From positions 1-64,000 of IMG/VR virus record IMGVR_UViG_3300034418_011550: a stretch of 64,000 bases of DNA. One strand, given 5' to 3'. Made by a program: the position numbers and the translations under genes. Below the pieces are notes generated by a model. That model ran no database searches, was not told the origin of the DNA, and saw nothing but the letters and a program-made list of their open reading frames with translations. How positions within the stretch are numbered: the stretch's first letter is position 1; each line of letters begins with the position of its first letter. The stretch comes from a virus. Positions 37,739-53,632 of the stretch are shown here, in pieces.

Positions 37739-37746
37739 TATTTATT
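37737..37746 (+). promoter_or_regulatory. Putative late promoter
   Basis: AATATTTATT 4 nt before ATG 37751. Confidence 0.6.
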
Positions 37747-37750
37747 ATAA

Positions 37751-40390
37751 ATGGCTAAAAACGTCCAAATAATACCAGCATCAGGAACTGTAGATTTTCA
37801 AGATGGAACTCAATCAGTTATCCTGACAATGAAAAAATCAGGAGCTGTAGCTACAGGTATTGATATTTCTGTAAATGGTAGTGCTCCTGTGAGTATTCAA
37901 GGTACTCAAGGCACTACAGGTACTCAAGGTACTACTGGTCCTCAAGGTACAACAGGTACACAAGGAACAACAGGTACTCAAGGTATTCAAGGACGTCAAG
38001 GTGTAACAGGTCCACAAGGTACTACAGGTACCCAAGGTACTACAGGTACTCAAGGAGCAACCGGAACTCAAGGCACTACTGGTACTCAAGGCACTACTGG
38101 TACTCAAGGTACTACAGGCGCGCAAGGTATACAAGGTATAACAGGTAACACAGGTCCTACTGGTCCAACAGGCCCACAAGGTACAACAGGTGCTACAGGT
38201 TCACAAGGTACTACAGGCGCGCAAGGTATACAAGGTATAACAGGTAACACAGGTCCTACTGGTCCAACAGGCCCACAAGGTACAACAGGTACACAAGGTA
38301 CTTTAGGTCCTGTAGGTCCACAAGGAGCAATAGGTGCTCAAGGTATTCAAGGTGTTATAGGTCCTGTAGGAGCAACAGGTCCACAAGGAACAACCGGGGG
38401 AACAGGTCCAACAGGTCCTCAAGGCACTACTGGTACTCAAGGAACTATAGGTGCTCAAGGTATCCAAGGACGTCAAGGTATAACAGGTAACACTGGAGGA
38501 ACAGGTCCAACAGGTCCTCAAGGTACAACCGGGGGAACAGGTCCAACAGGTCCTCAAGGCACTACTGGTACTCAAGGAACTATAGGTGCTCAAGGTATAC
38601 AAGGTAGACAAGGTATAACAGGTAATACAGGCCCAATAGGACCAGATGGTCCTACAGGTCCTACAGGTTCACAAGGTACTACAGGCGCACAAGGTATACA
38701 AGGTATAACAGGTAACACAGGCGGAACAGGCCCAACTGGTCCAACAGGTCCAACTGGTCCAACTGGTCCACAAGGTACAACAGGTGCTCAAGGTATACAA
38801 GGTAGACAAGGTATAACAGGTAACACAGGCGGAACAGGTCCAACAGGTCCTCAAGGTACTTTAGGTCCTATAGGTCCTCAAGGAGCTATTGGTGCTCAAG
38901 GTATTCAAGGTATTATAGGTCCTGTAGGAGCTACTGGACCACAAGGAACAACAGGTGGAACAGGTCCAACAGGTCCTCAAGGCACTACTGGTACTCAAGG
39001 AACTACAGGTGCTCAAGGTATACAAGGACGTCAAGGTATAACAGGTAACACTGGAGGAACAGGTCCAACAGGTCCTCAAGGTACGACCGGGGGAACAGGT
39101 CCAACAGGTCCAACAGGTCCTCAAGGTACAACAGGTACCCAAGGAGCTATTGGTGCTCAAGGTATACAAGGTCGTCAAGGAATAACAGGTAATATAGGCC
39201 CAATAGGACCAGACGGTCCTACAGGCCCTACAGGCCCAACAGGCCCACAAGGAACAACTGGTGGAACAGGTGCTCAAGGTATACAAGGTAGACAAGGTAT
39301 AACAGGTAACACTGGAGGAACAGGCCCAACAGGTCCTCAAGGAACAACTGGAGGTACTGGAGGAACAGGTCCAACAGGTGCTCAAGGTATACAAGGTATA
39401 ACAGGTAACACTGGAGGAACAGGTCCAACAGGTCCTCAAGGAACAACTGGAGGTACTGGAGGAACAGGTCCAACAGGCCCACAAGGAACAACTGGAGGTA
39501 CTGGAGGAACAGGCCCAACAGGTGCTCAAGGTATACAAGGTATAACAGGTAACACTGGAGGAACAGGACCAACTGGTCCACAAGGAACAACAGGTGGAAC
39601 AGGAGGTACAGGACCAACTGGTCCACAAGGTACTATCGGAGCACAAGGTATTCAAGGACGTCAAGGTATAACAGGAGACCAAGGAAACCCAGGTGTCCCT
39701 GGAACTCAAGGTACTACTGGAGCAACAGGTACTCAAGGAACTACCGGTGCTCAAGGTATCCAAGGACGTCAAGGTATAACTGGTGGAACAGGAGGAACAG
39801 GTCCACAAGGCACAGCGGGTAGTAATGGAAGCACAGGTCCAACAGGTCCACAAGGTACAACAGGCGGAACAGGAGGAACAGGTCCAACAGGCCCACAAGG
39901 AACAACTGGTGGAACAGGAGGAACAGGTCCACAAGGTGCAGCAGGTAGTAATGGAAGCACAGGTCCAACAGGCCCACAAGGTACAACTGGTGGGTTTACT
40001 ACAAACTCAAACGCTCAAATTAACTCATTAGGTGTTAATACAACTGCTCCAGGTATTGCTGGAGAAATTAGAGCAACAGGTAACATTATAGCATTCTACT
40101 CAGATGCTAGATTAAAAACTAATGTTGAAAAAATTGAATCAGCTTTAGAATTAATTTCTAAACTTAGAGGTGTAAGATACAATTGGACTGAAGAAGCTGA
40201 AGCAATGGCCCCTTCAAGAGCTGGTAAAACAGAAATTGGAGTTATTGCTCAAGAAGTTGAAAAAGTACTTCCTGAAATAGTAGTTGATTGGGATGAATAT
40301 AAGACAGTAGTTTATGATAGATTAACAGCATTGTTGATTGAAGCTGTTAAAGAATTAATAGATGAAGTAAACCAATTAAAAAATAAATAA
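37751..40390 (+). CDS. Collagen-like tail fibre with C-terminal S74 intramolecular chaperone
   Basis: About 232 Gly-X-Y triplets; [10 protein letters not shown]...[14 protein letters not shown]...LLIEAVKEL. Confidence 0.88.
37901..39991 (+). repeat. Collagen Gly-X-Y repeat ([18 protein letters not shown])
   Basis: In-register Gly codons from 37901 to 39989; internal block duplications. Confidence 0.9.
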
Positions 40391-41083
40391 ATGGCAATAC
40401 CTAGTACTAATGTTTATTTAGAAAATATTTATTGGGAAGCTCAATTTGGAGGAGGAAGTGGTAATCCTGGTAGTGGAATTAGTTTTGGAGACTTAGCAGG
40501 ATATTCTTATTTTGATGGTTCTAATGGTAGTGGTACTATATCCTACAACGCCTGGGGCCAAAATTCAGCAGGAGGTGTAAATAGAATATATGGCTTACCT
40601 ATAGCTGCTAACCCCGGACCTTATGAATTTAATGATTATAAAAGTTTAGTTTATTTTTATGATCAAAGTAGTTATCAAGTTACTTTAACTGTAATAAATA
40701 ACCTAGCTCCACCTCCACCTCCACCTCCTCCTATTAATAACGATGTACAAGACTGCAATTTATCCTTTTATGACAATTCAGGAACTTATCTTTATTTAGC
40801 AGGTAACTCAGGAGGAGTACCAACATTTAGTAGTTTTGGCCCTACAGACATATCACAAAATAATACCCCTATTATAGCCCAAGGTTATTGGTATATAGAT
40901 TTAAGTATGGATCCTGGTTTTGGAGGAGGTTCTTGTGACATAAGCATAAATGGAACAGGATATGTTACAGGAGCAGGAATAGGTGGAGGTAGTAACCTTT
41001 TTGATTGGAATACATATGGAGCGGCGGCTATAGCTAATGCTGGATCTTTTATTGGATTAGATGTGGTAGTAACTGTTTATTAA
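40391..41083 (+). CDS. Fibre-associated protein with poly-Pro linker
   Basis: 230 aa, G/S/N-rich, contains APPPPPPPPI. Confidence 0.6.
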   Translation: MAIPSTNVYLENIYWEAQFGGGSGNPGSGISFGDLAGYSYFDGSNGSGTISYNAWGQNSAGGVNRIYGLPIAANPGPYEFNDYKSLVYFYDQSSYQVTLTVINNLAPPPPPPPPINNDVQDCNLSFYDNSGTYLYLAGNSGGVPTFSSFGPTDISQNNTPIIAQGYWYIDLSMDPGFGGGSCDISINGTGYVTGAGIGGGSNLFDWNTYGAAAIANAGSFIGLDVVVTVY

Positions 41084-41085
41084 TT

Positions 41086-41283
41086 ATGCCTACTTATACT
41101 TTTATATCAACAAGACAATTTTTAGGTTATATACCTTCATCTACTTTAGAAGAAACCATTTTTAATAAATGTAAAGAAGTAAAATCTTTATATAGAATTA
41201 GCGGAGTTAACCCTAGATATTATTTTTACCTTACAACTTTTTTACAAGAATATTTTCAAGATAAAGTAGGAAATCCGGAATAA
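41086..41283 (+). CDS. Hypothetical protein
   Basis: 65-aa ORF filling the gap, 2 nt after the upstream stop. Confidence 0.5.
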   Translation: MPTYTFISTRQFLGYIPSSTLEETIFNKCKEVKSLYRISGVNPRYYFYLTTFLQEYFQDKVGNPE

Positions 41284-41285
41284 AA

Positions 41286-41316
41286 TTTGGTTTTTTAAAA
41301 TAAATTTGTTATATTA
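41286..41316 (+). promoter_or_regulatory. Putative host-sigma-type promoter TTTGG-N19-TATATTA
   Basis: tttgg 41286-90, tatatta 41310-16; heads the glycosylation operon. Confidence 0.55.
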
Positions 41317-41325
41317 TAATTAATT

Positions 41326-41907
41326 ATGTACTCTAGACCTATATTTGATCCTAATTTAGAAATTGATCAAACAAACTACTACTGGTTCGAAAATGGATTC
41401 TCTTCAGATGAAGCAGATGAAATCTTAAAACTTACAAAAGACTATGAATTTGAACAAGCTACTATTATATCTGGCAATACATCAGATATAAGAAATAGTA
41501 ATATCAAATGGATAGCACCAAGTGAAAATTCTTCTTGGATTTATGACCGTTTAATGGGTTGTATTAAAGAAGCTAATAGTGTTTGGAAATTTAATCTTTA
41601 TTCTGTTTTAGATGATATTCAATATACAGAATATAGAGGCGGTGGTGGACATTATAACTGGCATATAGATATCGGCCCAGGTTCAATTTCCCATCGTAAA
41701 GTATCAGTTATTGTACAACTTTCTGATCCTTCAGAATATACTGGAGGTGTTTTAGAAATTAGTTCAGGCAGTAACACCCAAAAAGTTTCAAATAAAAAAG
41801 GAGCAGTTATTGTTTTCCCTTCATTTTTACAACACAGAATAACCCCTGTAGCCTCAGGTTTAAGAAAAAGCTTAGTATTATGGGCTGGTGGAGAACACTA
41901 TAAGTAA
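41326..41907 (+). CDS. 2OG-Fe(II) oxygenase (prolyl-hydroxylase / PKHD-like)
   Basis: WHID (HxD), RKVSVIVQL, GGVL, FPSFLQHRITPV, R-x-S (RKSLV). Confidence 0.88.
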   Translation: MYSRPIFDPNLEIDQTNYYWFENGFSSDEADEILKLTKDYEFEQATIISGNTSDIRNSNIKWIAPSENSSWIYDRLMGCIKEANSVWKFNLYSVLDDIQYTEYRGGGGHYNWHIDIGPGSISHRKVSVIVQLSDPSEYTGGVLEISSGSNTQKVSNKKGAVIVFPSFLQHRITPVASGLRKSLVLWAGGEHYK

Positions 41908-41908
41908 T

Positions 41909-42898
41909 ATGATTGACAATTTAGTTAAATTAGTTTTAAATAAAGGAGGTTCTATATCTCATTTAAAGATTCCTTCAATTGATAGTAGAAATACAGGTTT
42001 ATGTAATCCCTCTATTTTTGTTGATAATGATGGAACTATTTTACTTAATTTAAGAAATGTAGGTTATCTTTTTTACCATTGTGAAAATGAACAAAAGTTT
42101 CAAGGACGTTGGGGCCCATTAGCTTATCTTCATCCTGAAAATGATCCACATTTAAGAACAACTAACTTTTTATGTATTTTAGATCCTAAAACTTTAGAAA
42201 TAAAATCATACAAAGAAGTAAACACTTCAGAGTTAGACATTGAACCAGTTTGGGAATTTATTGGGTTAGAAGATGCTCGAGTAGTTCGTTGGGATGGTGT
42301 TTTATATATTACAGGTGTTAGAAGAGATACTAAACCAAATGGAGAAGGTAGAATGGAACTTTCTGAAATAGATGATTATAGAACATCAAATGAAATCTCA
42401 AGAGTAAGAATAGAACCACCTAATGATCCTAATTCATATTGTGAAAAAAATTGGATGCCTATTAATGATATGGATTATTGTTATGTCAAATGGGCTAACC
42501 CAGTAGAAATTGTAAAAGTTGATCCTATTAAAGGAACTAGTAAAACTATATTTTTAGGTAAATTTAAAGAAATAAGTAAAAACCATGATTTAAGAGGTGG
42601 TTCATCTGTTGTGAAATGGAAAGATTATCGTTTATGTGTTGTTCATGAAGTAGATTTTTGGCAAAATGAAAATAATAATAAAGATGGTATTTATAACCAT
42701 AGAATAATTGTTTATGATAAAGATTGGAATATTGTAAAATATTCTGATGTATTTAAGTTTATGACTGGAAGAATTGAATTTGTTTGTGGAGCAGCGGTTG
42801 TGGAAAATGATTTAATTATCACTTATGGATTCCATGACAGCGCAGCTTTCGCTTTAAAAATCCCAGAAAATGTTGTAGAGGAACTAATCAATGGATAA
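41909..42898 (+). CDS. Five-bladed propeller glycoside hydrolase/phosphorylase-like (GH130/GT91-like)
   Basis: CNPSIF, GLEDARVV, EKNWMP, LRGGS, IEFVCG; start moved to 41909. Confidence 0.6.
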   Translation: MIDNLVKLVLNKGGSISHLKIPSIDSRNTGLCNPSIFVDNDGTILLNLRNVGYLFYHCENEQKFQGRWGPLAYLHPENDPHLRTTNFLCILDPKTLEIKSYKEVNTSELDIEPVWEFIGLEDARVVRWDGVLYITGVRRDTKPNGEGRMELSEIDDYRTSNEISRVRIEPPNDPNSYCEKNWMPINDMDYCYVKWANPVEIVKVDPIKGTSKTIFLGKFKEISKNHDLRGGSSVVKWKDYRLCVVHEVDFWQNENNNKDGIYNHRIIVYDKDWNIVKYSDVFKFMTGRIEFVCGAAVVENDLIITYGFHDSAAFALKIPENVVEELING

Positions 42899-44120
42899 TA
42901 TTTTAAAGAATTTTATAGATAATCCATATCATCCAGAAACAAATTTTGTATTTGGTGAACAATATTATCAAGAAGGACATAAAGCAGCCGCTTTGTCTTT
43001 ATTTTTAAGAGCAGCAGAATATGGTTTTGATAAAGATTTAACATATGAAGCTTTAATTAAAGTAGCTTTATGTTTAAAAGAAATAGAAGGACGTCCTCAT
43101 TCAACTAGAGGAGCTATCTTAAATGCTATTACTTTTGATCGTGAACGTCCTGAAGCTTATTATCATTTAAGTTATGATTATCAAGTTAAAGGAGAATGGC
43201 AAGAATCATATTTAGCAGCTGTTCAAGGTTTAGATAAAATAAAAAATATCAAACCTACTTTAACTAGTATTGATTTTCCTGGTGAATATGCTTTAATATT
43301 CCAAAAAGCAGTAGCAGGATGGTGGATTGGATATTGTGATGAGTCAAGAAAATTATTTAATCACTTATTACAGGAATATTCTATGCGTCCTGAATTTGTA
43401 GAAGCTTGCTATAATAATTTATCTACAATTCATGGGATTCAATATCCAACGTTAACTTATACTAAAGAAGAACACTCAAAATTAAGATACAAATTTAAAA
43501 ATTCTGAAAAAATTGAGAAAAATTATTCCCAAACTTACCAGGATTTGTTTGTATTAAGTATGTTAGATGGAAAAGAAAAAGGCACTTATGTTGAAATAGG
43601 AGCAGCTGATCCTTTCCATAATAGTAATACAGCTTTATTAGAAAAAGAATTTAACTGGACAGGGGTATCATTAGAAATCAATGAAGAAGAAGTAAATAAA
43701 TTTAACTCTCAACGTTCTAACGCGTGCCTTTTACAAGATGCTACAGTTGTCAACTATGAAGAGTTATTTGTTAATAACAACTTTAGTGAGGTTATAGATT
43801 ACCTTCAAGTTGATTGTGAACCGGCTGAAATAACATTTAAAGTGTTACTTTCAATTCCTTTTGATAAATATAAATTTAGAGTAATCACCTTTGAACATGA
43901 TTATTATTTAAATCATTCTTTAGATTATAGAAATCTTTCTAGAAAATTCTTAGAAGCTCATGGTTATAAAAGAGTAGTAGGAGATATAGCTCCTGACTCA
44001 AATAGTACATTTGAAGACTGGTGGATACATCCTGAATTAGTAGATTCTGAAATTTTTACAGCAATGGTAGATTATTCTGAAAAAATTAAAAGAGCAGATC
44101 ATTATATATTAAATGGCTAA
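42891..44120 (+). CDS. TPR-like repeat + FkbM-family methyltransferase fusion
   Basis: Helical N-half (FLRAAE, RPEAYY); C-half YSQTYQD, YVEIGAAD, DYLQVDCEP, ITFEHD. Confidence 0.75.
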   Translation: MDNILKNFIDNPYHPETNFVFGEQYYQEGHKAAALSLFLRAAEYGFDKDLTYEALIKVALCLKEIEGRPHSTRGAILNAITFDRERPEAYYHLSYDYQVKGEWQESYLAAVQGLDKIKNIKPTLTSIDFPGEYALIFQKAVAGWWIGYCDESRKLFNHLLQEYSMRPEFVEACYNNLSTIHGIQYPTLTYTKEEHSKLRYKFKNSEKIEKNYSQTYQDLFVLSMLDGKEKGTYVEIGAADPFHNSNTALLEKEFNWTGVSLEINEEEVNKFNSQRSNACLLQDATVVNYEELFVNNNFSEVIDYLQVDCEPAEITFKVLLSIPFDKYKFRVITFEHDYYLNHSLDYRNLSRKFLEAHGYKRVVGDIAPDSNSTFEDWWIHPELVDSEIFTAMVDYSEKIKRADHYILNG

Positions 44121-44958
44121 TCAAGATTGGAAAATAACACCCTATGCTACTATGGAGATTACAACTAATCTACCTAAAAAAGGCTGTGTTGTTGATTGCA
44201 TTTTTTGTCCTCAAAGAACTTTAGTTAAAAATTATAATGGAACCCGTCATTTATCTTTAGATGACTTTAAAAGAGCAATAGATAAAATCCCAACAGAAGT
44301 TAGAATTACTTTTGCTGGTTTTACTGAACCTTGGACTAATAGGCATTGTACTGATATGTTACTTTACGCTTATGAAAAAGGACATAGAATAGCAGCATTT
44401 ACTACAGCTGTAGGAATGACAGTAGATGATGTAGAAAGACTTAAAGATGTTTCCTATGATAATGGTCCTAACGCTGGTTTTGTTTTACATTTACCTGACC
44501 AAGAAAGATTAGCAAAACATCCTATAACTCCTCGTTATATAGAAGTTATTGAAGCTTTCGGGCTCTATCAAGATTCTTTTAACACATTTCATTTAATGTC
44601 AATGGGTACTGTCCATGAATCTATTAATCATATTTTTAGTCATGCTAGCAATCCTGAAATGTGGTCTAGAGCAGGAAACTTAATAGGTGAAGCCATTCTA
44701 AAACCAGAACTGCTAAATGTTAAAGAATTATTCAGATCAGTATATCATGGTGAGTCACCTAAAACATGCGGCTGTATAGAAAATTTATACCATAACGTGA
44801 TGCTTCCAAACGGAGATGTATCTTTATGTTGTATGGATTATTCTTTAAGTTATATTATAGGAAATATGTTTGAACAAGAATATGAAGATGTTATTCCAAA
44901 ATTAAATTCTTGTTATGATATGTGTCGTTATTGTGAAAATGGAATTAACCCTAATTAA
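44113..44958 (+). CDS. Radical SAM protein with SPASM/twitch domain
   Basis: CVVDCIFCPQ (CxxxCxxC), FAGFTEP, C...PNGDVSLCCMD...IGN...CRYC. Confidence 0.88.
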   Translation: MANQDWKITPYATMEITTNLPKKGCVVDCIFCPQRTLVKNYNGTRHLSLDDFKRAIDKIPTEVRITFAGFTEPWTNRHCTDMLLYAYEKGHRIAAFTTAVGMTVDDVERLKDVSYDNGPNAGFVLHLPDQERLAKHPITPRYIEVIEAFGLYQDSFNTFHLMSMGTVHESINHIFSHASNPEMWSRAGNLIGEAILKPELLNVKELFRSVYHGESPKTCGCIENLYHNVMLPNGDVSLCCMDYSLSYIIGNMFEQEYEDVIPKLNSCYDMCRYCENGINPN

Positions 44959-44961
44959 AAT

Positions 44962-45963
44962 ATGAAATCAATAATTATAGTTTCTGCTTATTGCCCTGAT
45001 GATGAAAGAAAAACAATGCTTGAAAATTGTATTAATTCTCTTCAACCTATTAGAAAAGATTTTGATATTTTAATTTCAAGCCATTCTTATATTCCTGAAT
45101 ATATTAGTAAAAAAGTAGATTTTACTTTTTATGATGCTAACAATGATTTAATATATGATTGGGATTTAATGAATCTTCCATGGTTTTCACCTTATGAAGG
45201 TTTACATATAGTTTCTTCATTAATATCTAATTTTAGTACTTATTCTGCTTGTAATAGAATAATAATGGGTGGTTTAGGTATAGCTAAAAATTTTGGATAT
45301 GAAAAAGCCCATTATATAGATTATGATGCTATTATTAATGATTATTCTGAGTTTTATGAAAATAATGAATTACTAAATAAGTATGTAACAATCCAATATA
45401 AAAAAGAATACAGAAATTTTGATTGGAATGTTGAAGGTGGTGTAGGTGTTTTCCAATCAATAAATTTAAATAAAATAAATAAAATTTTTACAACATATGA
45501 TGAAAAAGAGTTATTAAAAATTCTAAAAGAAGCCCCTAATAAAACAAATGAAATTATATATCAGGATTTATATAAATTAGATGGAGAGGAAATATTGTAT
45601 AAAAACTGGGATGATTTACTAAATCAAGGAAACATATTTAATCAATCTATATCTACACAAAAAGATGATTTAAATGATTGGACTGTTCCTTTTTATGATA
45701 CTAAAACAGGTAAATTAAATGTTATTGTTTGGAACTCTAAAAAAGATTATCCTATTAATACTAGTTTTATTATAAATCAAGAAAAAATAATCACAATAAA
45801 CAATATAAACAAATACCAATGGAGTATAAGAGAAGTAGATGATATCAATAATGTTAATGAAATATTAATTATTGTTGATAACAAAATTAAAAACCACATC
45901 CTAATAAACACCCCAGAATTAAAAGAGAAATTTAAACGTAATAATCAAACACAATATAATTAA
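44962..45963 (+). CDS. Putative GT-A glycosyltransferase-like protein
   Basis: N-terminal IIIVSAY strand, HYIDYD (DxD). Confidence 0.5.
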   Translation: MKSIIIVSAYCPDDERKTMLENCINSLQPIRKDFDILISSHSYIPEYISKKVDFTFYDANNDLIYDWDLMNLPWFSPYEGLHIVSSLISNFSTYSACNRIIMGGLGIAKNFGYEKAHYIDYDAIINDYSEFYENNELLNKYVTIQYKKEYRNFDWNVEGGVGVFQSINLNKINKIFTTYDEKELLKILKEAPNKTNEIIYQDLYKLDGEEILYKNWDDLLNQGNIFNQSISTQKDDLNDWTVPFYDTKTGKLNVIVWNSKKDYPINTSFIINQEKIITINNINKYQWSIREVDDINNVNEILIIVDNKIKNHILINTPELKEKFKRNNQTQYN

Positions 45964-46887
45964 ATGAAAAAAATAGCTTTAATAACTAGTTTTTGCAATA
46001 ATAAGGAAAAAATTAATGTGTTAAAAAATAAATTAGAGACATTAAAAAATCTTAATATAGATACAATCCTTTATACAGCTATCCACCTCCCAGAAAAAAT
46101 TTATAAAAAAGCAGACTATACTATAATTTCAAAAGAAAACCTAGTATTTGATTGGCCTATAAAAGCTTACTATCAATGGACTGATATTATTATTGGAAAC
46201 CTAAACATTAAAATGAGTCGCACATACCCAGATTATGGTTATGCTGTTTTAAATCAAATTAAAAAAATGGCTAATTTAGCTTTATCTATGGATTATGATC
46301 ACTTTTTTATAATAGATTATGATACTCATATCACTGATGAAGTAAAAAATATTCTTTTAGACAGTAAACCAAATAGTTTTTTTCCATCAAAAAGAGAAAC
46401 ATCTGTTTGGCCTATAGGACTTCATTTAATATCTTTAAATAAAACTTATTTAAATAGGTTTAAAAATCTAATAACCCCAGAATCTTATCTAACTGAAAAA
46501 AATGGAGATGCTTTTTCATGGACTCATAAAGCTATAAAATTTATTCCTGCTGTTATTGAAAATGTTGAACCTATAGAAGATTTAGTTTATAATTTTAATG
46601 AGTTTGATTTTTTTAATTATTCTACAACAAATGAGTATAAATTATTTATTCATAAAACAGACTTTGATAATATAAAACTTCTTTTTTATGAATTTGAAGG
46701 AGTTAAAAATATAAAAATTATAAGTGATAATTTTGAAAAAGAATTTAATTTAAAAACTTGGGAACATATTGAATTACCATTTAATACTTGTTCTTTATTA
46801 AAAATTTTATGTAATGATGAAGAAATTGATTATACAAAAAACATAATTTCTATTGGACAAAATATTTTAACAATTAATAATATATGA
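45964..46887 (+). CDS. Putative GT-A glycosyltransferase-like protein (paralogue of upstream gene)
   Basis: IALITSFC, FIIDYD (DxD). Confidence 0.5.
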   Translation: MKKIALITSFCNNKEKINVLKNKLETLKNLNIDTILYTAIHLPEKIYKKADYTIISKENLVFDWPIKAYYQWTDIIIGNLNIKMSRTYPDYGYAVLNQIKKMANLALSMDYDHFFIIDYDTHITDEVKNILLDSKPNSFFPSKRETSVWPIGLHLISLNKTYLNRFKNLITPESYLTEKNGDAFSWTHKAIKFIPAVIENVEPIEDLVYNFNEFDFFNYSTTNEYKLFIHKTDFDNIKLLFYEFEGVKNIKIISDNFEKEFNLKTWEHIELPFNTCSLLKILCNDEEIDYTKNIISIGQNILTINNI

Positions 46888-47723
46888 TAAATGTAACTTA
46901 TAATAGAGAAAATAATTCAACTTTAGTAGAATTAAATAATTTAACTTTAATTAAAGAACACCTTCCATTAACTATCCAATTTAAAAATATTATTTCAAAA
47001 GAAATCCATTATGAAGTTAAATTAACAGACAATTGTTGGGCAGAATGGAAAGGTGGAGAATTTATTACTGATGTTTTGATTTATTCTTCTAATGGGACTT
47101 TATTACATGAACATAAATGGGATGTCACTGTTAATGGAGATATTCATGAAAAAATGTTATGGTACTATTTAAAAGGTAGACAATTACAAGGATTAAAATC
47201 TAACGGTTTAGTTATTGGTGCTCATGATGGAAGAAACGGACATTGGATATACCCCGTTAAAGAAAATTTAACAGAAGCTACTTTAATTGACGGTAGTGAT
47301 AACCAGTTTAAAAAACTAGAAGAAAATTATTTTAATTATTTAAATACAAAATTTAAAAATATTATAGTTACAACAGATGGATCTGATGTAGAATGGTATC
47401 AAGGCGGAGAAGGCTATACAGATACAGTAATACCATCAGTAATCAATGAATGGTTAGACTCTTCAGAAATAACTAAAACGTATAGAAAAAGTATATCAAT
47501 TAATGATTTAATAAAAGATCAAAATTATGATTGGTTACATTTAGATGTAGAAGGTTTAGATGGAGATTTAATTTTAGCTTTGGAATCTAGACCTAATTTA
47601 ATAATTTATGAAGATGAAAATTTAGATATAATTACTAAAGCTAAGCTTGATATTTGGTTTTTAGCAAATTCTTATAAAACAATTAAACACACTTGTAATA
47701 CACTAGCTATTAAAAATGACTAA
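46884..47723 (+). CDS. Beta-domain + FkbM-like methyltransferase
   Basis: LVIGAHDG, LHLDVEG, IIYE. Confidence 0.65.
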   Translation: MINVTYNRENNSTLVELNNLTLIKEHLPLTIQFKNIISKEIHYEVKLTDNCWAEWKGGEFITDVLIYSSNGTLLHEHKWDVTVNGDIHEKMLWYYLKGRQLQGLKSNGLVIGAHDGRNGHWIYPVKENLTEATLIDGSDNQFKKLEENYFNYLNTKFKNIIVTTDGSDVEWYQGGEGYTDTVIPSVINEWLDSSEITKTYRKSISINDLIKDQNYDWLHLDVEGLDGDLILALESRPNLIIYEDENLDIITKAKLDIWFLANSYKTIKHTCNTLAIKND

Positions 47724-49995
47724 ACCAAAAGTATATGTTCATGGTTCTTATATAGGAACTACAGGTTATAACCAACATACAAGAGACTTTTTTAGAGAGT
47801 TATCTAAACATTTACAATTAAAAGTTAGGAATTTCACAATTGGTAAAACATGGGAAAGTTTTAATAATACCCCTCATAATAATGAACCTTATATTAATGA
47901 AATAGATAAATCTATTTTATATGAACAGATATTATGGAATGATAAGGGTGGGAGAGATAACTATAAAATATATTCTGACAAATCTAAAGAATTTCTACAT
48001 GATTTAAATATTGTTTTATGTGAAACTAATCATCATTTATTTTATGATGGATACAATGGTCCAAAAATAGCTTATAATGTTTGGGAAACAACCCAACAAC
48101 CAGAAGAATTTTTTAATAAATTAAAAGAATTCGATGAATTATGGGTTCCTTCAAAATGGCAGCGTGATGTAACTATTAAACAAGGCTACCCAAAGGATAA
48201 AATTAAAGTTGTTCCTGAAGGAGTTGATATTCATACTTTTTACCCTGAAGAAACAACTCATGAGTTAACTTCAGATGGTAGATTTAAATTCTTTTTAGCA
48301 GGTAGATGGGATTATAGAAAATCAACTAAAGAAATTATTGAAACATTTTTAAATACATTTAATGAAAATGATCCTGTTGACTTAATTGTTTCTATAGATA
48401 ATCCTTTTTCAGGAGATGGTTTAGAAACAACAGAAAATAGATTAAAATATTATGGTTTAACAGATCCAAGAATTAAAGTAGTTCATTTTCCATCTAGAGA
48501 AGATTATATTAAAATACTAAAATCATGTAATGTGTTTTTATCTTGTGCTCGTTCTGAGGGTTGGAATTTACCTTTAATTGAGGCAATGGCCTGTGGTATA
48601 CCCTCTATTTATTCAAACTGTTCAGGTCAACTTGAATTTGCTGAAAATAAAGGAATACCAATAAATATATTAGGTGAAAAATCAGCAAATGATTCATCAT
48701 ATAATCATTTTAATGATTACACAGGTAATTATTATGAACCTGATTTTAACCATTTACAACTAATGATGATGTATTCTTATAAAAAGTATGATGAATGTAA
48801 GAAAAATGCTTTAAAAGAATCAGAAGAAATTAAACATAATTTTAGTTGGGAAAAAGTAGGACAAATTGGTTATAAAACTATAATAGAATTTTATGAAAGG
48901 AATAAACATAAAAATGCTCAATTAAAAAATGAAATAAAAATTAGTTATTTTGATGGTCCTAAAATAGAAATTGTAGGAGATAAACTAGAACAATATCATA
49001 TTGAATTTTTAGATGAAAATAATAATATTATTCATGAGGACACTATCACTAATAATATGTGGACAAAATGTTCTAGAACCTATTATACTAAATGGAAAAT
49101 TAAAGTTAATGGAAATATAATTGAAGAACTTAACTTAAATAATAAACGAGTATTAATAGGATTAGAGTCAAAATCTATTGGTGATACAATTGCTTGGACA
49201 CCCTATGCTGTTGATTTTGCTAAAAAACATAATTGTAAAGTAATTTTAAGCACATTTCATAACCATTGGTTTAAAGGATTAGAGACATATAAAGACATTG
49301 AATTTATAGAACCAGGACAATCAATAAACTGTGATGTTATATATCGAATAGGATGGTTTAGAGGAGAATCAGGTAAATGGGACAAATTTGAAATGTATCC
49401 TAATTATCCTCAAACTCAACCACTCCAAAAAACAGCATCAGATATTTTAGGTTTAGAATTTAAAGAATTAAATTATGGGATAAATTTTGCCCCAAAATCA
49501 AAATCAATAAAAACAAATTATATTGTTATTGCCCCTGAATCAACTGCTGGTTGTAAAGAGTGGCCTTATGACAGTTGGGTATCATTATCTAAAATGTTGC
49601 GTGAATTAGGATACACAGTAGTAACACTTACAAATAAACCCTATAATATAAAAGGTAATTTAAATATTCACGGTAAAACATTAAATGAATCTATGGATAT
49701 TCTTTATAATGCTAAATTTTTAATAGGATTAAGTTCAGGACTATCTTGGATAAATTGGGCTTTAGGAAAACAAACAGTGATGATTAGTGGTTTTTCTCAA
49801 AAAGATCATGAATTTATATCTAATAATATAAGAATACAAAATGAACATGCTTGTAATTCATGTTGGAATAATACTAACTTTATTTTTGACCCTGGAAATT
49901 GGGATTGGTGCCCAATATGGGAAGGAACAGATAAACAACATATTTGTGAAAAATCAATCTCACCATTAACTGTATTTAATTTATTACCTTTATGA
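47716..49995 (+). CDS. GT4 glycosyltransferase fused to TibC/Aah-family protein O-heptosyltransferase (GT9-like)
   Basis: GT4: VPSKW, KFFLAGRWDYRK, SEGWNLPLIEAMACG. TibC-like: YFDGPK beta domain, SIGDTIAW, GLSSGLSW, MISGF, HACNSCWN...WCP...C. Confidence 0.85.
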   Translation: MTKPKVYVHGSYIGTTGYNQHTRDFFRELSKHLQLKVRNFTIGKTWESFNNTPHNNEPYINEIDKSILYEQILWNDKGGRDNYKIYSDKSKEFLHDLNIVLCETNHHLFYDGYNGPKIAYNVWETTQQPEEFFNKLKEFDELWVPSKWQRDVTIKQGYPKDKIKVVPEGVDIHTFYPEETTHELTSDGRFKFFLAGRWDYRKSTKEIIETFLNTFNENDPVDLIVSIDNPFSGDGLETTENRLKYYGLTDPRIKVVHFPSREDYIKILKSCNVFLSCARSEGWNLPLIEAMACGIPSIYSNCSGQLEFAENKGIPINILGEKSANDSSYNHFNDYTGNYYEPDFNHLQLMMMYSYKKYDECKKNALKESEEIKHNFSWEKVGQIGYKTIIEFYERNKHKNAQLKNEIKISYFDGPKIEIVGDKLEQYHIEFLDENNNIIHEDTITNNMWTKCSRTYYTKWKIKVNGNIIEELNLNNKRVLIGLESKSIGDTIAWTPYAVDFAKKHNCKVILSTFHNHWFKGLETYKDIEFIEPGQSINCDVIYRIGWFRGESGKWDKFEMYPNYPQTQPLQKTASDILGLEFKELNYGINFAPKSKSIKTNYIVIAPESTAGCKEWPYDSWVSLSKMLRELGYTVVTLTNKPYNIKGNLNIHGKTLNESMDILYNAKFLIGLSSGLSWINWALGKQTVMISGFSQKDHEFISNNIRIQNEHACNSCWNNTNFIFDPGNWDWCPIWEGTDKQHICEKSISPLTVFNLLPL

Positions 49996-50651
49996 TAAAC
50001 TTAGAAAATTTTAATTGGGGCCCAACATCAGAATGGTATAAAGATCAACTTACTAGAGAAATGTTTGAAGAAAACATTTATGAAAAATATTTTCCTGTTG
50101 AAGAAGGAGATATAGTAGTTGACTTTGGAGCCTCTATAGGAGACTTTATCTGGTCTATTAAGGATAAAAAACCAAAACATTGTTGGGTTGTTGAACCTTT
50201 AAATTCATATTTTGATATTTTACAAGAAAATTTATTAGGTTATTCTGTTTCTTTTATTAAAGCTTTTCTTAGTCAAGAAGAAACAACAGAAGTACAATGG
50301 GATGGGTTAGCTAGTGAATGTAGAAGTTTAACTTTTAAAAAATTTATAAAAGAAAATAATATTAAATATATTGATTTTTTAAAAACAGATTGTGAAGGAG
50401 GTGAGTATAGCATCTTCACAGAAGAAAATATAGAGTATGTTTTAAACAACATTAGAAAAATATCAGGAGAATGGCATTTAAGCACTCCTGAATTAAAAGA
50501 AAAATTTAGAAATTTTAGGGATAACTACTTAATTAAATTTAATAATTTTGAAGTTTATTCTGTAGACGGTGTTAATATCAAATGGGATTTATGGAATGAA
50601 CATTTTATAGAGTATTATAATGAAGTTATAATTCATATAGATAATCGTTAA
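49992..50651 (+). CDS. FkbM-family methyltransferase
   Basis: VVDFGASIG, IDFLKTDCEGGE, GEWH. Confidence 0.85.
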   Translation: MINLENFNWGPTSEWYKDQLTREMFEENIYEKYFPVEEGDIVVDFGASIGDFIWSIKDKKPKHCWVVEPLNSYFDILQENLLGYSVSFIKAFLSQEETTEVQWDGLASECRSLTFKKFIKENNIKYIDFLKTDCEGGEYSIFTEENIEYVLNNIRKISGEWHLSTPELKEKFRNFRDNYLIKFNNFEVYSVDGVNIKWDLWNEHFIEYYNEVIIHIDNR

Positions 50652-50667
50652 TTTCCTTAAAAATAAT

Positions 50668-50677
50668 AATATTTATC
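50668..50677 (+). promoter_or_regulatory. Putative late promoter
   Basis: AATATTTATC 4 nt before ATG 50682. Confidence 0.6.
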
Positions 50678-50681
50678 ATAA

Positions 50682-51503: not shown

Positions 51504-51511
51504 TATTTATA
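51502..51511 (+). promoter_or_regulatory. Putative late promoter
   Basis: AATATTTATA 4 nt before ATG 51516. Confidence 0.65.
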
Positions 51512-51515
51512 ACAT

Positions 51516-51767: not shown

Positions 51768-51784
51768 TTTTTGACTCCTTTGCC

Positions 51785-51794
51785 AATATTTATT
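51785..51794 (+). promoter_or_regulatory. Putative late promoter
   Basis: AATATTTATT 22 nt before the sheath ATG. Confidence 0.6.
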
Positions 51795-51816
51795 ATCAAA
51801 TAAACATTAATAAAAA

Positions 51817-53595
51817 ATGGCATCAACATTAATATCCCCTGGCGTACTCGCTATTGAAAACGATCAGTCGTTTCTCACCCAACAGCCAGTAACTGTAGGA
51901 GCTGCAATTATCGGCCCAACTGTGAAAGGTCCTGTTGAAATTCCTACTGTAGTAACTTCATACTCACAGTATCAAAACTTATTCGGTACAACATTTACTA
52001 GCGCAAGTAGTGTTTACACTTACTTCACTTCAATTGCAGCTTATAACTATTTTGCAAATGGTGGTGAAAGTTTGTTAGTAGCTAGAGTAGTATCAGCTTC
52101 TGATTCTTGGGCTTCAGCAACAACAGATACTGGTTCTGTAACAGGAACTAATGGTGTTCAAGATGCTGTAGGTGCTCCAGTCTCAATTATGAACTCTGCT
52201 TCATTCTCACAATCATTTGCCTTAGAAACTATTTCTATGGGTGCGATTATGAATAGTGTTGGTACAACTGGATCAAATGGAGTTTTAGATTCTGGTTCAA
52301 CTGATAACTTAAGGTGGGTAATTTCAAATCCAGACACAGCTAACGGTACTTTCTCATTAATCATTAGACAAGCTAGTGACGATAATAATAACCAAAGTGT
52401 TTTAGAAACTTGGACTAACTTATCATTAGACCCTAAAGCTGATAATTATATTTCTAAAATTATTGGTGACCAGTCAGCTTCATTTAATGGAGAAGTTGCA
52501 AACCCACAAATAACAATTGGTGGTGAATATCCAAACGCTTCAAGATATGTAAGAGTTAAATCAGTTGATCAGAAAACACCAGATTACTTTAATAACTCAG
52601 GTACTGCAAAACCAGAATTTACTGGATCTATTCCAGCAGCAGGTAGTGGTTCATTTATTGCGGGTGTAGGTGTTAATGTACCTAATGGAGCTAATAAATA
52701 TTATAACGAAATCACAGGTAACAACACTCAAGGTTTATCAGGTAGTGATTATACTAATATGATTGCTTTATTATCAAACCAAGATGATTACCAATTTAAC
52801 TTATTAGTAACTCCTGGTTTGTTCAATAACATCGGTACACATAACGGACAGATCACTAACATTATTAACAACACCCAAAACAGAGGAGATAATATTTTTG
52901 TAGTTGACTTAGCTTACTACGGTACAGCTCAAGCTACAGTAATTACTCAAGCCGCTGCTAGAAACACTTCATATGCTGCTGCTTACTGGCCTTGGTTACA
53001 AACCATTGATCCAGATACAGGAGCTAGAGTATGGGTTCCAGCTTCAACAATGATTCCAGGTGTTTATGCTTATAATGATAGTGTAAGTGAGCCTTGGTTT
53101 GCACCAGCTGGTATTAACAGAGGTGGTTTAACGACTGTAATTAGAGCAGAACAAAAATTATCTCAAACTAATAGAGATTCTTTATATGTAGGAAAAGTAA
53201 ATCCAATCGCTACATTCCCAGGAACTGGAGTTGTAGTATACGGTCAGAAAACATTACAAACTAGAGCTTCTGCTTTAGATAGAGTAAATGTTAGAAGATT
53301 GTTAATTGCATTGAAATCATATATTTCTCAAGTAGCTAATAACTTAGTATTTGAACAAAATACAGCAGCTACTAGAAACAGTTTCTTAGCTCAAGTTAAC
53401 CCATATTTAACCTCAGTACAGCAGAAACAAGGTTTATATGCTTTCAGAGTAATTATGGATGACACAAACAACACCGCTGATGTAATTGACAGAAACCAGT
53501 TAGTAGGTCAGATTTATATCCAACCAACTAAGACTGCTGAATTCATTTACTTGAACTTCAACATCTTACCAACTGGAGTAGAATTCCCAGCATAA
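51817..53595 (+). CDS. Contractile tail sheath protein (gp18-like)
   Basis: ISPGVLAIEND, PWFAPAGINRG, VVYGQKTL, RVNVRRLL, IQPTKTAEFIYLNF. Confidence 0.95.
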   Translation: MASTLISPGVLAIENDQSFLTQQPVTVGAAIIGPTVKGPVEIPTVVTSYSQYQNLFGTTFTSASSVYTYFTSIAAYNYFANGGESLLVARVVSASDSWASATTDTGSVTGTNGVQDAVGAPVSIMNSASFSQSFALETISMGAIMNSVGTTGSNGVLDSGSTDNLRWVISNPDTANGTFSLIIRQASDDNNNQSVLETWTNLSLDPKADNYISKIIGDQSASFNGEVANPQITIGGEYPNASRYVRVKSVDQKTPDYFNNSGTAKPEFTGSIPAAGSGSFIAGVGVNVPNGANKYYNEITGNNTQGLSGSDYTNMIALLSNQDDYQFNLLVTPGLFNNIGTHNGQITNIINNTQNRGDNIFVVDLAYYGTAQATVITQAAARNTSYAAAYWPWLQTIDPDTGARVWVPASTMIPGVYAYNDSVSEPWFAPAGINRGGLTTVIRAEQKLSQTNRDSLYVGKVNPIATFPGTGVVVYGQKTLQTRASALDRVNVRRLLIALKSYISQVANNLVFEQNTAATRNSFLAQVNPYLTSVQQKQGLYAFRVIMDDTNNTADVIDRNQLVGQIYIQPTKTAEFIYLNFNILPTGVEFPA

Positions 53596-53619: not shown

Positions 53620-53632
53620 ACAAAATAATAAA

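What the first reader, a model, noticed from the sequence alone, without database searches (positions are those of the whole stretch)
47716..49995. Phage TibC/Aah-type serine O-heptosyltransferase fused to GT4
Seen: the C-terminal half (about 48925-49995) has the N-terminal beta module, IGD catalytic motif, GLSSGLSW and the four-Cys HACNSCW...WCP...C signature. Known: TibC/Aah are iron-containing enzymes that hyper-glycosylate Ser of autotransporter adhesins using ADP-heptose. Inference: primer transferase for the Ser-rich fibre, with GT4 adding the next sugar. The donor may differ if the host lacks ADP-heptose.
Basis: partly seen in the sequence, partly recalled or inferred. Interest (0 to 1): 0.8.

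Follow-up and report, generated by a model that had tools for sequence, protein, structure and literature searches.

The report
Phage TibC-like fibre glycosyltransferase fusion
A freshwater bacteriophage encodes a two-domain sugar-transferring enzyme, half of it a true relative of the E. coli enzyme that coats adhesins with heptose, and it most likely sugar-coats the phage's own giant serine-rich collagen-like fibre, though nobody has tested this at the bench.

Summary
ORF 47716-49995 (759 aa) is a GT4 domain fused to a full-length TibC/Aah-type domain: TIGR04414 scores 214.1 bits against a cut-off of 200, and PDB TibC 4RAP gives E 5e-35. The catalytic Asp, the beta-phosphate Thr/Lys, the heptose-contacting Trp and all four iron-finger Cys are kept.

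It is not a classical BAHT. The adenine-contacting Arg-286 is Ser, the beta-hairpin thumb needed for the dodecamer is missing, and there is no autotransporter target.

On a tree of 111 domains it falls in a sister clade. Every visible partner there is a Gly-Ser/Thr-Ser repeat protein, either a phage fibre or a small bacterial lipoprotein. Classical BAHTs pair with AIDA-like autotransporters instead.

In related phages, the two collagen-like fibres and the enzyme operon are present or absent together as one block of about 24.6 kb.

Best reading (0.6): a soluble bifunctional protein O-glycosyltransferase that decorates the 3889-aa Gly-Ser/Thr-Ser fibre. The sugar is unresolved, with heptose favoured only weakly.

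I found no paper describing this. This scan has noted the same pairing on many other genomes.

The parts
47716..49995 (+). GT4 / TibC-like fusion gene (759 aa, P0001). No transmembrane segment: the highest Kyte-Doolittle mean over 19 residues is 0.94.
47716..48900 (+). GT4 (GT-B, retaining-type) domain, residues 1-395. The E-x7-E motif E281-E289 lies at nt 48556-48582.
   Evidence: Pfam Glycos_transf_1 at 51.2 bits against 26.4. R201, K202, E281 and E289 are at least 90% conserved in 30 fused homologues. Motif position. That E-x7-E is a GT4 hallmark is recalled.
48925..49992 (+). TibC/Aah-like domain, residues 404-759: N-terminal beta module, GT-B catalytic core and Cys4 finger.
   Evidence: TIGR04414 at 214.1 bits against 200. 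4rap E 5.1e-35.
49183..49185 (+). Codon of D490, equivalent to the TibC catalytic base Asp-110.
   Evidence: Alignment and position. Invariant in 111 of 111 domains and in 105 of 105 representative clusters.
49852..49947 (+). Four-Cys 'iron-finger' segment (C713, C716, C732, C744).
   Evidence: Role as described in eLife 2014 PMC4358343.
49690..49692 (+). Codon of S659, at the position of TibC Arg-286, which contacts adenine N1 and sets ADP specificity. Not conserved here.
26069..37738 (+). Candidate acceptor: a 3889-aa fibre protein with 1793 Ser, 468 Thr, 1168 Gly, 25 Pro and 1061 G-[ST]-S triplet strings.
37751..40390 (+). Second collagen-like fibre (879 aa, Thr/Gln/Pro-type triplets, almost no Ser in the triplets). 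Part of the same accessory block.
41326..47723 (+). Upstream enzymes of the same overlapping operon: 2OG-Fe(II) oxygenase, a 336-aa unknown, a TPR plus weak FkbM-like protein, radical SAM/SPASM, two paralogous unknowns (44962, 45964) and a 279-aa unknown.
   Evidence: Gene gaps run from -20 to +3 nt.
49992..50651 (+). FkbM-family methyltransferase. Its start overlaps the stop of the fusion gene by 4 nt.
   Evidence: Pfam Methyltransf_21 at 2.1e-8. TIGR01444 at 39.6 bits against 37.7. Overlap.
26069..50651 (+). The roughly 24.6-kb accessory block (two fibres plus enzyme operon) that is absent as a unit from TibC-negative relatives.
51817..53595 (+). Tail sheath gene. It is the conserved downstream anchor of the TibC-like gene in 52 of 53 related loci.

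Best explanation
The gene encodes a soluble, cytoplasmic, bifunctional protein O-glycosyltransferase made late in infection, together with the virion genes.

Its TibC-like domain uses Asp-490 as catalytic base and Thr-610/Lys-614 on the donor's beta-phosphate. It repeatedly transfers a sugar from a nucleotide sugar onto Ser hydroxyls of the Gly-Ser/Thr-Ser triplets of the phage's own 3889-aa fibre. The fused GT4 domain, which is retaining and has an intact E-x7-E motif, adds a second sugar. Neighbouring FkbM methyltransferases and other operon enzymes then tailor the glycan.

Shown:
- homology and conserved catalytic residues
- operon structure
- co-inheritance of the fibres and the enzymes
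- clade-wide pairing of this subfamily with Gly-Ser/Thr-Ser repeat proteins

Inferred:
- that the fibre is the acceptor
- the order in which the two domains act
- the sugar. Heptose from ADP-heptose is the default by homology, at roughly even odds against another nucleotide sugar.
- iron binding

The enzyme probably does not form the TibC-type dodecamer, because the beta-hairpin thumb is missing.
For: Homology
- TIGR04414 above cut-off and TibC E 5e-35.
- D110, K230 and W305 equivalents and the four Cys are conserved here. D110 is invariant across 111 of 111 domains and 105 of 105 representative clusters; the other residues are near-invariant (e.g. K230 110/111 and 101/105, W305 109/111 and 105/105).
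- LPS heptosyltransferase models lie far below their cut-offs.

Physical nature
- No transmembrane segment.

Operon
- Nine genes from 41326 to 50651 have gaps of -20 to +3 nt, on the strand of the structural genes.

Synteny
- The TibC-like gene lies just 5' of the sheath in 52 of 53 IMG/VR loci.

Co-occurrence
- Among sheath-anchored loci with at least 9 kb upstream, 13 of 18 TibC+ loci show a Ser/Thr-type Gly-X-Y ORF, 3 show only a Pro-type one and 2 show none. Among TibC- loci, 0 of 10 show any.
- 7 of 10 TibC- loci have the homologue of window ORF 25096-26046 only 0.4-6.4 kb from the sheath, against 25.8 kb in the window.

Whole records
- G001 (TibC+, CheckV 100%) has a 3469-aa fibre with 1045 triplets. 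G002 (TibC+, 92%) has a 2569-aa fibre.
- G005 and G006 (TibC-, 128 and 115 kb) have neither a TibC-like gene nor any Gly-X-Y ORF.

Cultured phages
- Mel-JY01 has both the enzyme and a GTS/GSS ORF.
- Flavobacterium phage immuto (MCP 57% identical) gave no TibC hit and has no Gly-X-Y ORF in the 45 kb scanned.

Prokaryote genomes
- 16 of 22 loci with a domain at least 32% identical have Gly-Ser/Thr-Ser ORFs nearby and 0 of 22 have an AIDA-like gene.
- 24 of 58 loci at 31% or less have an AIDA-like gene and 0 of 58 have Ser-type repeats.
- Partner type changes once on the domain tree, across a 100% SH-aLRT branch.

Glycan logic in relatives
- An HldD-like epimerase lies 0.7 kb upstream in L019/L020 (TIGR02197 at 207.7 bits, below the 274.6 cut-off).
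- A PIG-L domain is fused in L036-38.
- An NTP-transferase/phosphatase protein lies downstream in L026.

Expression
- Exact-match contigs from three freshwater metatranscriptome runs lie inside the gene. This is weak support.
Against: - No sugar has been seen on any fibre. All acceptor evidence is guilt by association.
- The independent-pairs test on the sheath tree has only 2-4 pairs and is not significant. Many loci are near-duplicates: the 18 TibC+ loci are 12 distinct ones.
- 2 of 18 TibC+ phage loci and 6 of 22 genome loci show no repeat ORF within the DNA held.
- Arg-286 is Ser here, while it is Arg in 58 of 58 classical BAHTs. R286A largely abolished TibC activity.
- The thumb segment is 25 residues here, against 35 in 55 of 58 classical enzymes. 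TibC thumb-tip mutants were dimeric and inactive.
- No gmhA in 5 related records, two of them at least 92% complete. No HldD-like gene in the window.
- The host, and therefore ADP-heptose availability, is unknown.
- RNA libraries can contain DNA.
Confidence: 0.6

Rival explanations
1. Same acceptor and chemistry, but the TibC-like domain does not transfer heptose from ADP-heptose. It uses another nucleotide sugar, such as a GDP-heptose or a UDP/GDP-hexose or HexNAc.
For: - The adenine-N1 contact Arg-286 is Ser here. It is non-Arg in 24 of 53 clade-I domains, against 0 of 58 classical ones, and in 84 of 105 representative clusters.
- The paper ties this Arg to ADP-versus-GDP choice.
- No gmhA in 5 related records.
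- One lineage has an NTP_transferase-phosphatase protein next to the gene, and another has a PIG-L (GlcNAc-deacetylase family) fusion.
- Mel-JY01 infects a cyanobacterium. My recollection, not checked here, is that cyanobacterial LPS usually lacks heptose.
Against: - Trp-305, which contacts heptose O4, and the rest of the pocket residues named in the paper are kept.
- An HldD-like ADP-heptose 6-epimerase homologue sits in the same operon in L019/L020, whose enzyme also has Ser at the Arg-286 position.
- The paper itself calls the Arg contact weak.
Confidence: 0.3
2. The roles are reversed. The GT4 domain primes Ser, as GtfA does on serine-rich repeat adhesins, perhaps with GlcNAc. The TibC-like domain then extends the glycan.
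For: - Weak GT4 matches to GtfA (TIGR02918, 6.2e-5), BshA and MshA.
- The PIG-L deacetylase fusion in L036-38 fits a GlcNAc-first logic.
- What GtfA, BshA and MshB do is recalled.
Against: - 13 of 53 TibC-anchored loci have a stand-alone TibC-like gene. In the sheath-anchored set, the stand-alone loci show no GT4 homologue in the DNA held, yet they still sit by GTS/GSS fibres.
- The bacterial lipoprotein-linked members are also stand-alone.
- All GT4 matches lie far below their cut-offs.
Confidence: 0.12
3. The enzyme glycosylates something other than the giant Ser fibre: the Thr-rich second fibre, another virion protein such as ORF 50682-51503, or host envelope molecules.
For: - Several Ser/Thr-rich proteins lie nearby.
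- 3 of 18 TibC+ loci show only a Pro-type collagen ORF within the flank.
- Related bacterial enzymes sit beside exported lipoproteins.
Against: - In G001, the Pro-type fibre visible in the flank is preceded by a 3469-aa Ser fibre once the whole record is read.
- Homologues of ORF 50682 also occur in TibC- loci.
- The common denominator across phage and bacterial partners is the G-S/T-S tract.
- LPS heptosyltransferase models score far below their cut-offs.
- No PADLOC match.
Confidence: 0.1

Closest known systems
TibC-TibA (ETEC) and Aah-AIDA-I: bacterial autotransporter heptosyltransferases (BAHT; TIGR04414; PDB 4RAP/4RB4)
   Same: - Full-length homology, about 31% identity to annotated plasmid enzymes.
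- N-terminal beta module, GT-B core, catalytic Asp, beta-phosphate Thr/Lys, Trp-305 and the Cys4 finger are all kept.
- A soluble cytoplasmic enzyme acting on a hyper-repetitive Ser-bearing protein encoded nearby.
   Different: - Fused to a GT4 domain.
- Arg-286 is replaced by Ser.
- The thumb segment is about 10 residues shorter, so a dodecamer is unlikely.
- No autotransporter and no TIGR04415 target repeat.
- The partner is a collagen-like Gly-Ser/Thr-Ser protein.
- It lies in the sister clade on the domain tree.
- It is phage-encoded, in a virion module.
LPS core heptosyltransferases WaaC/WaaF/WaaQ (GT9)
   Same: Distant GT-B/GT9 homology over the C-lobe: Pfam Glyco_transf_9 at 36.2 bits, residues 593-695.
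   Different: - All LPS equivalog models score far below cut-off, for example 32.4 against 185.3.
- The beta module and Cys4 finger are BAHT features, not LPS-enzyme features.
Virion glycosylation of mycobacteriophages (Freeman et al. 2023)
   Same: Phage-encoded glycosyltransferases decorate the phage's own structural proteins.
   Different: - There the glycans are on the C-termini of capsid and tail-tube subunits, and no BAHT-type enzyme or collagen-like acceptor is mentioned.
- I saw this work only as a passage and reference in PMC12619734 and did not read the paper itself.
Serine-rich-repeat adhesin glycosylation (GtfA/GtfB) and glycosylated collagen-like proteins such as Bacillus BclA (both recalled, not checked here)
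   Same: Dense O-glycosylation of long Ser/Thr repeat or collagen-like surface fibres by soluble cytoplasmic GT-B enzymes. The GT4 domain gives a weak GtfA match.
   Different: Different enzyme families prime those substrates, and they belong to Gram-positive cells, not phages.

Membership tests
BAHT (TibC/Aah; TIGR04414) | Score above the curated equivalog cut-off over the full profile | tested here: met
   214.1 bits against 200, profile positions 10-369 of 374. Relatives score 194.1 (L024), 199.3 (L036), 207.8 (L039), 317.4 (Mel-JY01), 322.7 (L048) and 325.9 (L042).
BAHT (TibC/Aah; TIGR04414) | Catalytic base Asp-110 | tested here: met
   D490 in SIGD. Invariant in 111 of 111 domains.
BAHT (TibC/Aah; TIGR04414) | Donor contacts Thr-226, Lys-230 and Trp-305 | tested here: met
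   T610, K614 and W678.
BAHT (TibC/Aah; TIGR04414) | Arg-286 contact to adenine N1 (ADP specificity) | tested here: not met
   S659 here. Arg in 58 of 58 classical enzymes and in 29 of 53 clade-I domains.
BAHT (TibC/Aah; TIGR04414) | Four-Cys iron finger (Cys-339, 342, 358, 370) | tested here: met
   C713, C716, C732 and C744. This is sequence only; iron binding itself cannot be tested here.
BAHT (TibC/Aah; TIGR04414) | Beta-hairpin thumb with a hydrophobic tip, required for the dodecamer | tested here: not met
   A 9-residue gap opposite TibC 267-275, and the tip Phe-Val is replaced by Asn-Leu. The segment is 25 residues, against 35 in 55 of 58 classical enzymes. No model could be built.
BAHT (TibC/Aah; TIGR04414) | N-terminal beta-barrel domain | tested here: inconclusive
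   The sequence aligns from profile position 10 and from TibC residue 40.
BAHT (TibC/Aah; TIGR04414) | Paired autotransporter substrate with strand-loop-strand target repeats (TIGR04415) | tested here: not met
   No TIGR04415 match in the window's fibres or neighbours or in 5 related records. 0 of 22 clade-I genome loci have an AIDA-like neighbour.
BAHT (TibC/Aah; TIGR04414) | Transfers heptose from ADP-heptose to protein Ser | not testable with these tools
   Indirect evidence only: an HldD-like gene sits beside the orthologue in L019/L020, and no gmhA was found in 5 records.
GT4 (Glycos_transf_1) | Pfam score above the gathering cut-off, with a conserved E-x7-E | tested here: met
   51.2 bits against 26.4. 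E281 and E289 are at least 90% conserved in 30 homologues. The meaning of the motif is recalled.
LPS heptosyltransferases (GT9 equivalogs) | Score above any LPS heptosyltransferase cut-off | tested here: not met
   TIGR02193 at 32.4 against 185.3, TIGR02201 at 16.1 against 170.2, TIGR02195 at 14.2 against 134.6.

The most novel reading that the evidence does not exclude
The TibC-like domain represents a distinct, undescribed branch of the BAHT family whose natural acceptor is the proline-free collagen-type triplet Gly-Ser/Thr-Ser. It is used by many aquatic phages to turn micrometre-long fibres into mucin-like, sugar-coated threads, and by some bacteria on small exported lipoproteins. It has a relaxed nucleotide pocket and a non-dodecameric architecture, made modular by fusion to GT4, methyltransferase, deacetylase and other domains.
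Probability: 0.45. Interest if true: 0.8.

Novelty: new variant of a known kind. Interest (0 to 1): 0.62.

Why it matters
**Enzyme family.** If true, an enzyme family known only from proteobacterial virulence adhesins would gain a second, much larger acceptor class: collagen-like Ser repeats. The representative search found 952 clusters at E <= 1e-30 for the whole two-domain protein.

**Phage biology.** Dense self-glycosylation of virion fibres would be documented in abundant freshwater and marine phages. That bears on host recognition, on fibre mechanics without proline or hydroxyproline, and on how phages stick to particles or mucus.

**Applications and testability.** It would offer a soluble, cytoplasmic, possibly processive Ser-glycosylating enzyme with a trivially simple acceptor motif for glyco-engineering. 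A cultured phage, Microcystis phage Mel-JY01, carries the same pairing, so the idea can be tested directly.

Tried and rejected
**Structure.** There is therefore no model and no fold search, and all structural statements rest on sequence alignment.

**Whole genome.** No whole genome is held for the window. I used related IMG/VR records instead.

**Close DNA matches.** Megablast of 44000-54000 against GenBank phages found nothing.

**Shared beta module.** BLASTP gave only a 14-residue match at E 0.079, so the claim is not supported at that sensitivity.

**Arg-286 and fusion.** My first impression from 35 sequences was that loss of Arg-286 goes with the GT4 fusion. It did not hold on 105 representative clusters, where 19 of 96 GT4-bearing forms keep Arg.

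**Cytidylyltransferase-like proteins.** Those in Mel-JY01 and G002 look like NMN-adenylyltransferase relatives, not RfaE. They say nothing about heptose.

**Promoters and terminators.** The scans gave no more sites than shuffled sequence: 79 against 81.5 promoter-like sites and 3 against 3.8 terminator-like sites.

**Defence systems.** No match for the gene or 7 neighbours in PADLOC. The Pfam 'GT4-conflict' hit (25.6 bits against 26) overlaps the generic GT4 match.

**ORF 44962.** The Atlas look-up gave only viral hypothetical clusters and sub-0.9 leads to Glyco_transf_25 and WavE.

**Expression.** RNA-run contigs are short and the libraries may hold DNA. Uncovered parts of the gene in those runs mean nothing.

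**Statistics.** The independent-pairs test had too few pairs.

**Literature.** Searches for phage + heptosyltransferase + collagen-like (0 papers), Mel-JY01 (0), bacteriophage + TibC (111 papers; the 12 listed were all irrelevant by title and abstract), heptosyltransferase + collagen-like (1, irrelevant) and BAHT + heptosyltransferase + virus (2, a review and a GmhA paper, by listing only) found no description of this system.

**Papers read.** Of the eLife paper PMC4358343 I read passages and section 11. I did not see its family alignment, which is a figure supplement. Supplementary files were not consulted.

**Incomplete control.** The immuto genome was scanned only over 115000-160410, not in full.


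Full report
**What is there.** The window is the structural module of an uncultured, low-GC (about 30%) freshwater myovirus.
- It holds large terminase (9256), portal (10849), T4-type prohead protease (15349), major capsid protein (17468), tail sheath (51817) and the genes that follow.
- DNA holders are freshwater metagenomes.
- The nearest cultured relatives by capsid protein are Flavobacterium phage vB_FspM_immuto (57% identity) and Microcystis phage Mel-JY01 (47%).
- ORF 47716-49995 is intact and encodes 759 aa.

- Residues 1-395 are a GT4 glycosyltransferase: Glycos_transf_1 at 51.2 bits against a cut-off of 26.4. E281-x7-E289, R201 and K202 are conserved in at least 90% of 30 fused homologues.
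- Residues 404-759 match the curated TibC/Aah equivalog TIGR04414 at 214.1 bits (cut-off 200, E 2.8e-63), over profile positions 10-369 of 374. They match the TibC crystal-structure sequence 4rap at E 5.1e-35.
- All LPS heptosyltransferase models fall far below their cut-offs; the best reaches 32.4 against 185.3.
- The protein has no hydrophobic segment of membrane-spanning character.

**Residue-level comparison with TibC.** I took the functional residues from passages and section 11 of the eLife 2014 paper PMC4358343. I mapped them by hand on the alignment and checked them on MAFFT alignments.

Conserved:

| TibC residue | Role | Window residue |
|---|---|---|
| Asp-110 | catalytic base | D490 |
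| Thr-226, Lys-230 | beta-phosphate | T610, K614 |
| Trp-305 | heptose O4 | W678 |
| Cys-339, 342, 358, 370 | iron finger | C713, C716, C732, C744 |

Not conserved:
- Arg-286, which bonds adenine N1 and which the paper uses to explain ADP specificity, is Ser-659.
- The beta-hairpin thumb is truncated. There is a 9-residue gap opposite TibC 267-275, and the tip Phe-265/Val-266 is replaced by Asn-Leu.
- The segment between two conserved anchors is 25 residues here, against 35 in 55 of 58 classical enzymes.
- TibC thumb-tip mutants were dimeric and inactive. The phage enzyme must therefore be organised differently.
- The stereoselectivity position Pro-300 is Ser, as in Aah.

**How common is it?**
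- The word-indexed search found 2670 proteins at E <= 1e-3 among 5208 candidates in the 417-1329 aa range. The best 120 were all at least 64% identical and were mostly about 760-aa fusions.
- The exhaustive representative search with the whole protein found 14959 clusters at E <= 1e-3 and 952 at E <= 1e-30. Many are multi-domain forms of up to 2033 aa.
- In IMG/VR, 53 loci encode a close relative:

| Form | Loci |
|---|---|
| about 760-aa GT4 fusion | 25 |
| about 1245 aa, with a C-terminal extension containing a PIG-L deacetylase domain | 3 |
| about 400-aa stand-alone | 13 |
| cut at the contig end | 11 |
| only a 39-residue fragment | 1 |

In 52 of the 53 loci a sheath homologue lies in the same locus; where the order was examined it follows the gene.
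- Among GenBank phages, only Mel-JY01 and three huge metagenomic phages carry the TibC-like part. In Mel-JY01 it is a 1226-aa protein annotated 'methyltransferase FkbM'.

**Context in the window.**
- The gene is the eighth of nine tightly packed genes (41326-50651, gaps -20 to +3 nt) on the strand of the structural genes.
- The operon holds a 2OG-Fe(II) oxygenase, a radical SAM/SPASM enzyme, FkbM-type methyltransferases and several unknowns.
- Directly upstream lie two collagen-like fibre genes:
  - a 3889-aa protein with 1793 Ser, 468 Thr, 1168 Gly, only 25 Pro and 1061 G-[ST]-S strings
  - an 879-aa Thr/Gln/Pro-type one
- Neither fibre matches the BAHT target-repeat model TIGR04415. That model is also absent from five related phage records.

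**Test of the acceptor hypothesis in phages.** I collected 78 further loci anchored on the sheath gene.
- Among loci with at least 9 kb upstream, 18 carry a TibC-like gene. Of these, 13 show a Ser/Thr-type Gly-X-Y ORF in the flank, 3 show only a Pro-type one and 2 show none.
- Ten such loci lack a TibC-like gene, and none of the ten has any Gly-X-Y ORF.
- The 18 are 12 distinct sequences, of which 8, 2 and 2 fall in those three classes.
- In 7 of the 10 negatives, homologues of window ORFs 23383, 24575 and 25096 sit 0.4-6.4 kb from the sheath, against 25.8 kb in the window. The block 26069-50651, fibres plus enzymes, is thus present or absent as one unit.
- Whole records agree:

| Record | Size and completeness | TibC-like gene | Gly-X-Y fibres |
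|---|---|---|---|
| G001 | 176 kb, CheckV 100% | one (GT4 fusion) | 3469 aa with 1045 triplets, plus a Pro-type fibre |
| G002 | 150 kb, 92% | one (stand-alone) | 2569 aa and 1142 aa, GTS-type |
| G005 | 128 kb | none | none |
| G006 | 115 kb | none | none |

- On a sheath tree the TibC state changes at least four times. Only 2-4 independent pairs exist, so the sign test cannot reach significance; no pair went the opposite way.
- Mel-JY01 has an unannotated ORF running across the ends of its record, with 181 triplets (GTS 75, GSS 56). It ends 1.7 kb before the enzyme gene.
- Immuto gave no TibC hit and has no Gly-X-Y ORF in the 45 kb of structural genes that I scanned.

**Test outside phages.** A profile-guided scan of one genome per prokaryote species returned 80 loci.
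- The 22 loci whose domain is at least 32% identical to the window's have Gly-Ser/Thr-Ser ORFs nearby in 16 cases and AIDA-like genes in none.
- The 58 loci at 31% or less have AIDA-like autotransporters nearby in 24 cases and Ser-type repeats in none.
- Some of the first group are clearly cellular: a 5.18-Mb Arenicellales chromosome, and contigs of 64-66% GC.
- In those, the partners are small proteins with a lipoprotein-type signal ending in Gly-Cys, a GSS/GTS tract and an acidic tail.
- A tree of 111 domains splits into two clades on a 100% SH-aLRT branch. One holds all phage forms and these bacterial ones. The other holds the classical BAHTs. Partner type changes once.
- Arg-286 is invariant in the classical clade (58 of 58) but relaxed in the other (29 of 53).
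- Caveats: this is a quick tree, long-branch warnings were given, and it is rooted at the midpoint only.

**Which sugar?** The evidence is mixed.

Against ADP-heptose:
- the lost Arg-286
- no gmhA in five related records, including two at least 92% complete
- no heptose gene found in the part of the window that I annotated

For heptose:
- the kept Trp-305
- in lineage L019/L020, whose enzyme is 71% identical and also has Ser at the Arg position, a 268-aa protein two genes upstream. Its best model by far is ADP-glyceromanno-heptose 6-epimerase: TIGR02197 at 207.7 bits (E 2.3e-61), below the 274.6 cut-off, with GalE at only 6e-12.

Other lineages add an NTP-transferase/phosphatase protein (L026) or a fused PIG-L deacetylase (L036-38). 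The glycans probably differ between phages. I leave the donor open, at roughly even odds.

**Which domain primes?** Stand-alone TibC-like genes without any GT4 homologue in the locus still accompany GTS/GSS fibres and the bacterial lipoproteins. The TibC-like domain is therefore the constant partner of the repeat and the likelier primer. This is inference.

**Expression.** Short exact-match contigs from three freshwater metatranscriptome runs fall inside the gene, at 48031-48181, 48100-48310, 48886-49061 and 49167-49436. RNA libraries can carry DNA, so this is weak.

**Comparison with the known, and novelty.**
- The enzyme works like a BAHT, as far as conserved catalytic residues can show, and passes the family's HMM cut-off.
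- It fails three family features that I could test: the Arg-286 contact, the thumb and the autotransporter partner. It also sits in a sister clade.
- I therefore file it as a new variant of a known kind.
- Five literature searches found no description of it.
- Phage virion glycosylation as a concept is known from mycobacteriophages. I saw that only as cited in PMC12619734.
- This scan has already noted the same pairing on many other genomes: 272 notes in at least 195 genomes hold the search words. My tests were run independently and agree with those notes. One lead, to look in cellular genomes, came from them.

**Limits.**
- There is no biochemical evidence.
- The host is unknown.
- Many metagenomic loci are near-duplicates.
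- Flanks of 10 kb often end before the fibre genes.

Noticed in passing
L001/L180 (Microcystis phage Mel-JY01, PP395634.1: about 187687 to the record end, continuing at 1-3049): An open frame of 1788 codons (stop to stop) runs across the ends of the linear record and holds 181 Gly-X-Y triplets (GTS 75, GSS 56). The record instead annotates short opposite-strand 'hypothetical' genes there. It is probably an unannotated collagen-like fibre gene in a circularly permuted genome.
   Followed up: partly
window 26069-50651, against loci L063, L064, L072, L081, L110, L117, L128: The two fibre genes and the enzyme operon behave as one accessory block of about 24.6 kb, inserted between conserved ORF 25096-26046 and the sheath region. 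Relatives lacking it have those flanks 0.4-6.4 kb apart.
   Followed up: yes
L190, L191, L193, L194, L195, L196, L198, L202 (Arenicellales and other Gammaproteobacteria MAGs): Small proteins (142-229 codons stop to stop) lie next to stand-alone TibC-like genes in cellular genomes. They carry a lipoprotein-like signal ending in Gly-Cys, a GSS/GTS tract and a poly-Asp/Glu tail. L194 has one on each side of the enzyme gene.
   Followed up: partly
L019/L020: 1376-2179 in L020: An HldD-like epimerase (268 aa; TIGR02197 at 207.7 bits, below the 274.6 cut-off) sits two genes upstream of the GT4-TibC-like gene in the same overlapping operon. It is absent from the window.
   Followed up: partly
L036-L038 (ORF 2792-6520 in L036): A GT4-TibC-like protein with a C-terminal extension of about 490 aa that contains a PIG-L (GlcNAc deacetylase family) domain (E 8e-12). 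This hints at an N-acetylhexosamine in the glycan of that lineage.
   Followed up: no
L026 12823-14655: A 611-aa protein downstream of the fusion gene combines a sugar-1-phosphate nucleotidyltransferase domain with an EcbF/BcbF-type capsule phosphatase domain and an unassigned C-terminal half.
   Followed up: no
L060 3935-6234: In the window's nearest relative by sheath protein, the GT4 part and the TibC-like part lie in different frames (ORFs 3935-4687 and 4624-6234). This may be a split gene, a frameshift or an assembly error.
   Followed up: no
window 19247-21610: Between the capsid gene and the neck genes lie a DDAH/amidinotransferase-like gene (Pfam 8e-7), a phosphatidylserine decarboxylase (2.7e-24) and PhoH (3.7e-66). 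These are auxiliary metabolic genes inside the structural module.
   Followed up: no
window 44962-45963 and 45964-46887: Two adjacent unknown genes with no Pfam, NCBIfam or PADLOC match. Weak homologues (20-44% identity) recur beside TibC-like genes in many loci, both fused and stand-alone types. The Atlas gives only viral hypothetical clusters, with weak leads to Glyco_transf_25 and WavE.
   Followed up: partly
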